64,000 bases of DNA, taken from the human T2T-CHM13v2.0 reference genome, Homo sapiens. Location: assembly GCF_009914755.1 (NCBI RefSeq), contig NC_060926.1, one strand, 5' to 3'. The notes under the pieces are model-generated. The model did not search any database, was not told where the DNA came from, and saw nothing but the letters and a program-made list of their open reading frames with translations. The position numbers were made by a program, and so were the translations under genes. Below are positions 30,700 to 32,997 of the stretch, one piece after another (positions within the stretch are counted from its first letter, which is position 1; the number at the start of each line of letters is the position of its first letter).

Positions 30700-31575
30700 A
30701 AGAAAGTAAATGTATACCAAACTGAAAGTAGAAATAGAAAATATATAATGAGGTAATAGATTTAATATCATAATTTTGGCTATCACCTTAATGTAGATGG
30801 ACTAAGTTCTTCCAATTAAAAATCAAATATTATCAGATTGGGTAAAATAATAAAACTCAACTCAAATGTTTCCTGTGAGAGCCACTTGAAACATTAGCCT
30901 GTGAAAGCATAAAAATACAGGAGAGAAAATATTATATCATCCCAACCAGCAAAAGATAGCATATATTAATATCTTAATTAATTCATAGCTATATTAAGCT
31001 AATAAAATAAACATTAAGTCATAAAGCATTGCTAGAAATAAAAAAGACTTGTTAATTATAAAAATATTTTACTAGTAAGCTAAAATAATTTTAAATGTGT
31101 ATGCATTTAATAACCTAAATTGAAATGTGTGAAGCATATCTTCCAGAATTTTTAAAAGAAGCCAAAGAGGCAAAGCTATAATGAAGAGTTTTAACATGTT
31201 TTTTAGCTGCTGATAGAATAGAGAAATAACATCAGTAAGGTTAAAGAAGATGTGAATCAGGAAATTAACATAATTGACCTTACAGAAAAATTCAGAGGAA
31301 CATTTTTACAAATGCAGAAGGAAAGAGATTTAATGCACACAGGGAATGTTTACAAAAATTATCTATTTAATGAGAAATAGAATAAATCATAATGCATATC
31401 AAATAATTTCAACTGGAGAAAAATTTCTGTGGCCATAATGCTATTAATCCAGAAATTAAACAGTTGCAAGTTTCCCACCTTCTTAAATGTTTGGAAGTTA
31501 AGAAATGTCCACAAAGTAATACTCCTTGGTCAAAGACAACGTGACGATGAAATTCGAGGAAATATTTGATCTTTT
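30700..31575 (+). mobile_element. Old L1M ORF2 endonuclease-region fragment
   Basis: tcaccttaatgtagatggactaagttcttccaattaaaaatcaaatattatcagattggg and tttaaatgtgtatgcatttaataac. Confidence 0.6.
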
Positions 31576-31762
31576 TGAATCCTAAATATACATGCACCTA
31601 ACACTGGAGCTCCCAAATTTATAAAATGGTTACTACTAGACCTAAGAAGTGAGAGAGACAGCAACACAACAATAGTGGGGAACTTCAACACTTCACTGAC
31701 AGCACTAGGCAAGTCATCAAAACAGAAAGCCAACAAATAAACAATGAATTTAAACTAGACAC

Positions 31763-32036
31763 GACTGGGTGCAGTGGCTTATGCTTGTAATCCCAGCACT
31801 TTGGGAGGCTGAGGCAGATGGATCACCTGAGGTCATGTGAAGCCCCATCTCTACTAAAATTACAAAACAATTAGCTGGTCATGGGGATGAGTGCCTGTAA
31901 TTCCAGCTACTTGGGAGGCTGAGGCAGGAGAATCACTTGAACCCAGGAGGCAGAGGTTGCAGTGAGCCAAGATTGCACCACTGCACACCAGCCTGGGTGA
32001 CAAGATTGAGACTCCATCTCAAAAAGTAAATAAATA
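31763..32036 (+). mobile_element. Alu (AluS) with ~27-bp left-arm deletion
   Basis: cacctgaggtcat is joined to gtgaagccccatctc. Outer TSD aaactagac / aaactatac flanks the Alu pair. Confidence 0.9.
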
Positions 32037-32343
32037 GGCCGGGTGCAGTGGCTCATGCCTGTAATCCCTACACTTTGGGAGTCTGAGGCAGGAGGATCAC
32101 CTGAGGTCAGGAGTTCGAGATCAGCCTGGCCAACATGATGAAATCCCATCTGTACTAAAAACGCAAAGAATTAGCTGGACATGGTGGTGCATGCCTGTAA
32201 TCCCAGCTACTCAAGAGGCCAAGGCAAGAGAGTCACTTGAACCCAGGAGGCGGAGGTTGCAGTGAATTGAGAGATTGTGCCACTGCACACCACCCTGGGC
32301 AACAAGAATGAAAATCTGTCTCAAATAATAATAATAATAAGAA
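32037..32343 (+). mobile_element. Alu (AluSq/Sx-like) inserted into the tail of the preceding Alu
   Basis: Full dimer with (TAA)n tail. aaagtaaataaata before and aaagtaaaataaata after act as a TSD. Confidence 0.9.
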
Positions 32344-32736
32344 GAAAGTAAAATAAATAAATAAATAAACAAACTATACCCTAGAACAAATGGACTTAAT
32401 AGATATTTACAGAGCATTTTACTCAACAACTGCAGTATATACGTTCTATTCATCAGCACATGCAACATTCTCCAAGATAGACCATAAGATAGGCCACAAA
32501 ACAAGTCTCAAGTAATTTAAGTAAATTGAAATTATATCAAGTACTCTTTCAGACCAAAGTGGAATAAAATTGGAAATCAACTCCAAAAGGAACCCTCAAA
32601 ACCATGCAAATACATGGAAATTAAATAACCTGCTCCTGAATGATCATTGGGTAAACAAGAAAATCAAGATTGATATTAAAAATTCCTTGAAGTGAACAAT
32701 AATAGTGATGCCATCTATCAAAACCTCTGGATACAT

Positions 32737-32850
32737 AGTAGTATTCCATTATATATATGAGATATCATATATATATATCTCATATATATATATATACCAC
32801 AGATTATTTATATACTCATTGATTGATCAGCATTTGGTCTGGTTCCATAT
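32737..32850 (-). mobile_element. L1PB-like piece B (end of ORF2, inverted, with internal TA tract)
   Basis: agtagtattccatt...ccacagattatttatatactcattgattgatcagcatttggtctggttccatat. Confidence 0.75.
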
Positions 32851-32926
32851 GTATATAGTATATAATACATACTATATGTGTGTGTGTGTATATGTGTATA
32901 CATATATATATATAAAATGAAATACT

Positions 32927-32997
32927 ATTATGTTAATTTTCTAATTCACATCTACTTTGACCTTACTGATGTTGTTTTTCTATTCTATCAGCAGCTA
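32927..32997 (-). repeat. 71-bp inverted copy of 31204-31274 embedded in a TA microsatellite
   Basis: Reverse complement tagctgctgatagaatagaaaaacaacatcagtaaggtcaaagtagatgtgaattagaaaattaacataat versus the source: 6 mismatches, no gaps. Confidence 0.92.

What the first reader, a model, noticed from the sequence alone, without database searches (positions are those of the whole stretch)
31204..32997. Second inverted capture inside a TA tract (71 bp from ~1.7 kb upstream)
Seen: 32927-32997 is the ungapped reverse complement of 31204-31274 (65/71 identical) and sits between TA/TG repeats. The source is in a heavily decayed L1M, so 92% identity is higher than two independent old copies should show. 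Inference: a local templated insertion, older than the 5.5-kb event but with the same geometry (inverted, upstream donor, landing in TA repeat).
Basis: partly seen in the sequence, partly recalled or inferred. Interest (0 to 1): 0.7.

Follow-up and report, generated by a model that had tools for sequence, protein, structure and literature searches.

The report
Nearby DNA copied into TA repeat
A 71-base piece of DNA sits as a reversed copy inside a long TA repeat 1.65 kb from its source, likely a scar left when a break in that repeat was patched with nearby DNA; such scars are a known kind, but a small sample hints that long TA repeats may collect them far more often than other DNA.

Summary
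Confirmed: 32927-32997 is an ungapped reverse-complement copy of 31204-31274 (65 of 71). Three own-genome searches return only these two places. It is a local templated insertion that fits the repair-mediated duplications of Pace et al. 2009 (824 human cases, donor within 5 kb) in size, distance and lack of a poly(A) tail. It is older than the 5.5-kb copy (8.5% against 2.5%, p=0.017). The acceptor is the expanded, hairpin-forming TA tract of a rearranged younger L1. 'Same geometry' is not established: the copy lies in a block of that L1 which is itself flipped, and other tracts hold direct copies and downstream donors. Unexpected extra: 5 of 38 TA tracts picked by motif elsewhere contain a copy of local flank (3 inverted, 2 direct; 2 of 38 with a detached donor). 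A uniform screen gave 3 hits in 40 kb of TA and 0 in 237 kb of other DNA (p=0.003 per base, p=0.18 per locus). The single event is ordinary. The possible hotspot needs a genome-wide count; my literature searches found no statement of it.

The parts
31204..31274 (+). Donor, 71 bp, inside a decayed old L1 (ORF2 start region; 'L1M' recalled)
   Evidence: host weakly mapped
32927..32997 (-). Copy, 71 bp, reverse complement of the donor, 65/71, no gaps; no poly(A/T) tail or flanking duplication; 2-base TA overlap at the right junction, about 1 base at the left
30789..31569 (+). Old host L1, left part; it resumes at about 34285-34406. About 200 bases of host seem missing at the site of the younger L1 (inferred from profile offsets)
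   Evidence: E=0.006 and 0.18, weak
31577..32735 (+). Younger L1 (L1PB-type, recalled), ORF2 piece, reference positions 1327-1867 in locus L008; interrupted by two Alu at about 31762-32355
32737..32850 (-). Inverted piece of the same L1's 3' region: both native edges of its TA tract with TA between them (fold-back-like copy)
   Evidence: (L014)
32847..32926 (+). TA/TG array followed by a 12-base imperfect repeat of the tract's right-edge motif, directly before the copy
32998..33538 (.). Expanded TA tract (the intact copy L014 has about 13 bases here); holds a 45-bp perfect stem, 33395-33439 with 33462-33506
   Evidence: z -6.5, 0 of 200 shuffles
33533..33757 (+). 3' region of the younger L1 after the tract, cut short before its tail
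33759..34289 (-). 5' piece of the same younger L1 (reference 1211 down to about 670), opposite in orientation to the block that holds the copy
5535..6209 (-). Companion event: 676-bp inverted copy of 4014-4685 between TA/TG arrays, 654/676
4014..4685 (+). Donor of the companion event, including an Alu

Best explanation
The 71 bases at 32927-32997 are a reversed copy of 31204-31274 on the same chromosome, likely made when a break or stalled fork at the hairpin-forming TA tract was repaired by a DNA end that briefly switched template to the nearby flank and then returned to the tract. Shown: copy, donor, uniqueness in three searches, sharp ends, no tail or target duplication, a 45-bp stem in the tract, and repeated copies of the tract's own edge next to it. 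Inferred: the break, the template switch on 1-2 bases of TA/AT overlap, a fold-back route that would give an inverted copy, and one shared episode with the inverted edge piece at 32737-32850 (both leave the edge motif at nearly the same base). Age is predicted at about 19 million years (7-40). No function is implied. That it is a local templated copy: about 0.95; that it arose by this route in the present layout: 0.62.
For: 65/71 with abrupt ends. Only donor and copy found genome-wide by DNA search (2 of 2 candidates) and by a 38-base pattern with up to 3 mismatches (1 forward, 1 reverse, controls 0). Size, distance and junction type match proximal repair-mediated duplications (PMC2671141: mean 162 bp, peak distance near 1.2 kb, none of 39 with a tail). 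The tract folds far better than shuffles. TA repeats break and are repaired with short templated duplications in cells (PMC13645644 section 10; circular tumour DNA). Reverse-complement insertions arise from hairpin-primed synthesis (PMC7165422 passages). The same scar recurs: both long TA tracts of this window and 5 of 38 tracts sampled elsewhere.
Against: No outgroup genome, so no empty site and no order of events. 8.5% divergence cannot be told from the age of the younger L1 (its pieces differ 11-15% from the 25-29 closest copies; P of 6 or fewer mismatches 0.08-0.38). Junction overlaps of 1-2 bases beside a TA repeat are what chance gives. The enrichment is significant per base (p=0.003; 0.011 with flanks alone) but not per locus (3 of 38 against 0 of 29, p=0.18), and the L1 control loci are shorter and less sensitive.
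Confidence: 0.62

Rival explanations
1. The copy was made before, or as one step of, the rearrangement that flipped the 31577-33757 block of the younger L1. Its orientation is then a by-product: with the block turned back it is a direct copy from a donor roughly 0.9 kb away (inferred from the missing pieces).
For: The L1's 5' piece (33759-34289, minus) ends at reference 1211 and the flipped block starts at 1327, so they are one element with an inverted part. At least six junctions lie within 2.8 kb. Direct captures exist in other tracts (L066 64/71, L051 34/35).
Against: The copy is somewhat closer to its donor (8.5%) than the L1 pieces are to their closest relatives (11-15%), though not significantly. 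The companion event in this window is inverted with no such block.
Confidence: 0.25
2. The copy was made while the younger L1 was inserting, by a template jump onto target DNA about 300 bases from the left junction.
For: The donor ends about 300 bases from the left L1 junction (31274 against 31577); the L1 lacks a tail and host DNA seems missing. Ages overlap.
Against: The copy lies deep inside the element at the TA tract, not at a junction with the host. The same scar occurs in TA tracts with no such L1 junction (window 5535-6209, L040, L041, L066).
Confidence: 0.08
3. Two independent fragments of an old L1 family that are alike by descent or by gene conversion; or an assembly artefact.
For: The donor lies in an old repeat. 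The DNA search skips very common words and scored only 2 candidates.
Against: No other match with 3 or fewer mismatches in 38 bases. Similarity stops dead at both ends, so there is no older fragment to convert. The 71-mer is no closer to 29 younger L1 copies than shuffles. An assembly error would be near-identical, not 8.5% apart.
Confidence: 0.04

Closest known systems
Proximal repair-mediated duplications (RDs), Pace, Sen, Batzer and Feschotte 2009, PMC2671141 (read: parts 1-5 of 8 of the text, word-search passages, part 1 of 15 of Table S1 and two searches of it)
   Same: Insertion of 50 bp or more inside a transposable element, single donor within 5 kb, no tail, little or no junction overlap; divergence in the range of the older rows of Table S1.
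   Different: The acceptor is a TA tract in a rearranged L1. In the main text the words inverted, simple repeat, microsatellite, low complexity and AT-rich do not occur, so no link to TA tracts or orientation is drawn there.
'Doublets' of Thomas et al. 2004 (paper not held; seen only as described in PMC2671141)
   Same: Short local duplications proposed to come from imperfect break repair.
   Different: Could not be compared in detail.
MMBIR-type templated insertions (MMB-TI), PMC8421209 (passages only)
   Same: Inverted copy of a nearby template; germline cases with up to five templates.
   Different: Their search takes templates within 100 bp; here 1,652 bp. Microsatellite calls were filtered out there.
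Polymerase-theta templated insertions (TINS), PMC7165422 (passages), and MMEJ at TA repeats on ecDNA, PMC13645644 (passages and section 10)
   Same: AT-rich ends, direct or inverse copies of flank, repeated rounds of synthesis; TA repeats as break sites that yield short duplications.
   Different: TINS are 3-30 bp and next to the break; the ecDNA work is somatic, on circular DNA, and the word germline does not occur in it.

Membership tests
Repair-mediated duplication (Pace 2009) | Insertion of at least 50 bp interrupting a transposable element | tested here: met
   71 bp between pieces of one younger L1
Repair-mediated duplication (Pace 2009) | Exactly one other copy in the genome | tested here: met
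   the DNA search skips common words, the pattern search covered 38 of the 71 bases
Repair-mediated duplication (Pace 2009) | Donor more than 50 bp and less than 5 kb away on the same chromosome | tested here: met
   1,652 bp
Repair-mediated duplication (Pace 2009) | No poly(A/T) tail | tested here: met
   junctions
Repair-mediated duplication (Pace 2009) | Microhomology (2-9 nt), filler or deletion at the breakpoints | tested here: inconclusive
   2-base TA at the right, about 1 base at the left; uninformative beside a TA repeat; pre-insertion state unknown
Repair-mediated duplication (Pace 2009) | Empty orthologous site in another primate | not testable with these tools
   G000 has no relatives here
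Repair-mediated duplication (Pace 2009) | Already listed in Table S1 | tested here: inconclusive
   No chr2 row for the prefixes 8150, 8155, 816, 817; positive control found. The hg18 position was only my estimate and other prefixes were not covered; one search had no working control.
MMB-TI (PMC8421209) | Insertion is an inverted copy of its template | tested here: met
   in the present layout; original orientation uncertain
MMB-TI (PMC8421209) | Template within 100 bp | tested here: not met
   1,652 bp
Polymerase-theta TINS (PMC7165422) | 3-30 bp copied from DNA next to the break | tested here: not met
   71 bp from 1.65 kb away
L1-mediated transduction or retroposition | Poly(A) tail and target-site duplication | tested here: not met
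   neither seen at the junctions

The most novel reading that the evidence does not exclude
Long, complex TA tracts are germline hotspots for capture of neighbouring DNA: about one tract in eight (5 of 38, 95% interval 4-28%) holds a copy of its own flank, tens to a hundred times the published background of 0.62 per Mb of repeat DNA. The tracts then carry a datable fossil record of their own breakage, and their great length is partly a product of the same repair rounds.
Probability: 0.5. Interest if true: 0.6.

Novelty: new member of a known kind. Interest (0 to 1): 0.35.

Why it matters
The single event has no sign of function. It lies in an intron of an uncharacterised lncRNA (hub annotation) and is one more of many hundreds of repair-mediated duplications. 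It matters only as part of a pattern. TA repeats are known break sites in tumour cells. If they also collect such copies in the germline, donor-copy divergence dates each break, orientation and distance constrain the repair route, and the question of how kilobase-long TA tracts grow becomes testable from existing genomes. Catalogues that drop microsatellite calls would have missed this class.

Tried and rejected
1) Polarising the six differences with 29 younger L1 copies seemed to put all changes on the copy; the alignment proved to be at shuffle level (34.4 against 34.1 +/- 2.5), so this is void. 2) Protein evidence for the donor: a 49-residue frame matched no L1 protein in PDB (2 unrelated hits, E 0.6 and 1.3). 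3) Relatives of the old host L1: none found. 4) A fixed 'inverted, upstream' geometry: 3 of 5 sampled copies inverted (p=1.0), 5 of 7 with the two window events (p=0.45). 5) The copy as a piece of the younger L1's own ORF2: 41 of 71 at best. 6) Rows left out of the 5 of 38: L047 (23-bp inverted match across the tract, inside a local tandem unit), L036 (tandem repeat and an Alu), L048 (young L1 inside the tract), and an 86-bp island in L066 with no donor. 7) The first screen missed L051 and L053; the masked screen found L040, L041, L053 but not L051 (seen by eye) or L066 (donor outside the fetched stretch). 8) Literature: ten searches. Five returned no paper; no title or abstract start listed by the others states that TA tracts collect local copies in the germline. 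Subscription journals and bioRxiv supplements are not covered, so this is weak evidence of absence.

Full report
Observation. Positions 32927-32997 are the reverse complement of 31204-31274 at 65 of 71 bases without a gap, and similarity ends at once on both sides. Chance is about 6e-15 for a window of this size. TA/TG arrays flank the copy at 32847-32914 and 33001-33538. The copies lie 1,652 bases apart, about 1,040 without the two Alu between them; whether the Alu came first is unknown.

Uniqueness. The 71-mer against the whole T2T assembly returns itself and the donor (2 of 2 candidates). A 471-base stretch around the donor returns itself and the copy. These searches skip common words, so I added a 38-base pattern with up to three mismatches: donor (0) and copy (2) only, reversed control 0. 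Shared non-consensus bases could not be tested, since no close relative of the old host L1 was found and my comparison with 29 younger L1 copies was at shuffle level. The host is only weakly placed as the start of an L1 ORF2 (E=0.006 and 0.18); 'L1M' and 'L1PB-type' are recalled names.

Anatomy. The acceptor is the TA tract of a younger L1. Mapped on 29 genomic copies, that element reads from left to right: ORF2 piece, reference 1327-1867, plus strand (31577-32735, with two Alu); an inverted piece carrying both native edges of the TA tract (32737-32850); TA/TG and an imperfect repeat of the tract's right edge; the 71-bp copy; about 540 bases of TA; the 3' region without its tail (33533-33757); and the 5' piece, reference 1211 to 670, minus strand (33759-34289). 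An intact copy (L014) has about 13 bases of TA here. The expanded tract holds a perfect 45-bp stem and folds at z -6.5 against 200 shuffles. The inverted edge piece and the 71-bp copy both begin where the edge motif is left, within a base or two, which suggests one repair episode with several template switches (inference). The right junction shares two bases (TA) with the donor, the left about one; there is no tail or flanking duplication.

Orientation. Because the block that holds the copy is flipped against the L1's 5' piece, the copy would be a direct repeat if it was made before the flip. Without other primates the order cannot be read. This weakens the claim of 'same geometry'.

Age. 6 of 71 is 8.5% (95% interval 3-17%), against 17 of 671 (2.5%) for the copy at 5535-6209; Fisher p=0.017. 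With the rate used by Pace et al. (2.2e-9 per site per year) this is about 19 (7-40) and 6 (3-9) million years. The younger L1's pieces differ by 11-15% from their 25-29 closest copies, so the capture cannot be dated apart from that L1 (P 0.08-0.38).

Known kind. Pace et al. 2009 (PMC2671141; parts 1-5 of 8 read) describe 824 human insertions of 50 bp or more with a single donor within 5 kb, mean 162 bp, peak distance near 1.2 kb, no tails, 0.62 per Mb of repeat DNA, stated to be a minimum. This event meets four of their features; junction signs are inconclusive and the empty site is untestable. I did not find it in their Table S1, but the search rested on an estimated coordinate. It is longer and farther than polymerase-theta insertions (PMC7165422, passages) and farther than the MMBIR-type insertions searched in PMC8421209 (passages). 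It works like these, but I do not file it under them. TA repeats as break sites that give short templated duplications are shown in tumour cells (PMC13645644).

Does it recur? Both long TA tracts of the window hold a capture, but that is how they were noticed. For an independent sample I listed TA tracts by two generic motifs and fetched every distinct locus among the first 100 rows of each list: 28 loci of 5 kb (478 matches in all; fetched) and 10 loci of 4 kb (2,121 matches). They come from contigs C1-C4 only. Five of 38 hold a copy of local flank inside the tract. L040: about 92 bp, inverted, from the adjacent flank (81 of 83 in the masked screen). L041: 75 bp, inverted, 74/75, donor about 400 bases downstream. 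L053: 55 bp, inverted, 50/55, tract edge. L051: 35 bp, direct, 34/35, tract edge. L066: 71 bp, direct, 64/71, donor 2.9 kb upstream. Only L041 and L066 (2 of 38) have a detached donor like the finding. The one uniform screen (TA masked, self-BLAST, repeats removed) gave 3 hits in 40,232 TA bases and 0 in 236,574 other bases: p=0.003, or 0.011 with the tracts' own flanks alone; per locus 3 of 38 against 0 of 29 L1 controls, p=0.18. Against Pace's density, 4 copies of 50 bp or more compare with 0.025 expected (p=2e-8; 1e-4 if the background is ten times higher), and the 2 detached ones give p=3e-4 (0.03). Limits: small sample, controls shorter and repeat-rich, two of the five found outside the uniform screen, donors beyond the fetched flank mostly unseen, and tract length may itself result from the repair, which inflates neither count nor cause but blurs the per-base rate. 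The donors in L051 and L053 look like ends of common repeats (recalled), though no equally close match lay among my loci.

Mechanism. Most likely the tract extrudes a hairpin or cruciform and is cut or stalls a fork (established for TA repeats in cells; inferred here). A TA-ended strand then primes on one or two matching bases, on its own strand (inverted copy) or on the sister or homologue (either orientation), copies tens to hundreds of bases, and re-anneals anywhere in the tract, because TA matches TA in both directions. Repeated rounds would give the edge repeats, the palindromes and the tract's length. The enzyme is not identified.

Verdict. A real, ordinary member of a known class: interest 0.35, raised from about 0.2 by the sample. 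The boldest reading left open is that long TA tracts are germline capture hotspots (probability 0.5, interest 0.6). Ten literature searches did not show this stated (see Tried and rejected), but the library lacks most subscription journals, and long-read structural-variant papers or their supplements may hold it.

Noticed in passing
window 4014-4685 and 5535-6209: Companion capture: 676 bp, inverted, 654/676, includes an Alu, junction overlaps of 1-2 bases with the TA arrays; longer than the largest proximal case (619 bp) in Pace et al..
   Followed up: partly
window 31577-34289: One younger L1 broken into flipped and unflipped pieces, with about 115 bases, most of ORF2 and the tail missing, and about 200 bases of host apparently lost.
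   Followed up: partly
window 39698-39808 and 40575-40684: A 111-bp direct duplication (100 of 110) flanks the minus-strand L1 3' end at about 39809-40558: an unusually long target-site-like duplication, with some 20 extra bases at the far junction.
   Followed up: partly
window 27760-29867: L1 with an inverted 5' part (about 27774-28920 minus, then plus to the tail) and a 14-bp flanking duplication at 27760-27773 and 29854-29867: ordinary twin-priming layout, read.
   Followed up: no
window 25422-25601 and 34526-34711: Two old L1 pieces 9 kb apart differ at only 25 of 180 aligned bases; same subfamily or an old local duplication.
   Followed up: no
window 56720-56773: Imperfect 54-bp palindrome, 82%.
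   Followed up: no
L041:3131-3205 (G000:C1, about 214.45 Mb): Young 75-bp inverted capture, 74/75, donor at 3612-3686; a candidate for presence/absence among humans or apes.
   Followed up: partly
L040:2657-2756: About 92 bp of the adjacent flank copied inverted into the tract, followed by a further 8-base piece of the same flank.
   Followed up: partly
L066:1505-1575 (G000:C1, about 75.72 Mb): 71-bp direct capture, 64/71, donor 2.9 kb away; several shorter islands recur in the same tract.
   Followed up: partly
L051:2438-2472, L053:3614-3668, L047:3685-3707: Copies of the tract's own edge inside or across the tract, direct in L051, inverted in L053 and L047.
   Followed up: partly
L048:1882-2346, L036:1964-2245: A young L1 3' end and an Alu lie inside TA tracts.
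   Followed up: no
L042, L046, L059: TA-rich tracts longer than 3 kb that run off the fetched stretch, with no islands seen.
   Followed up: no
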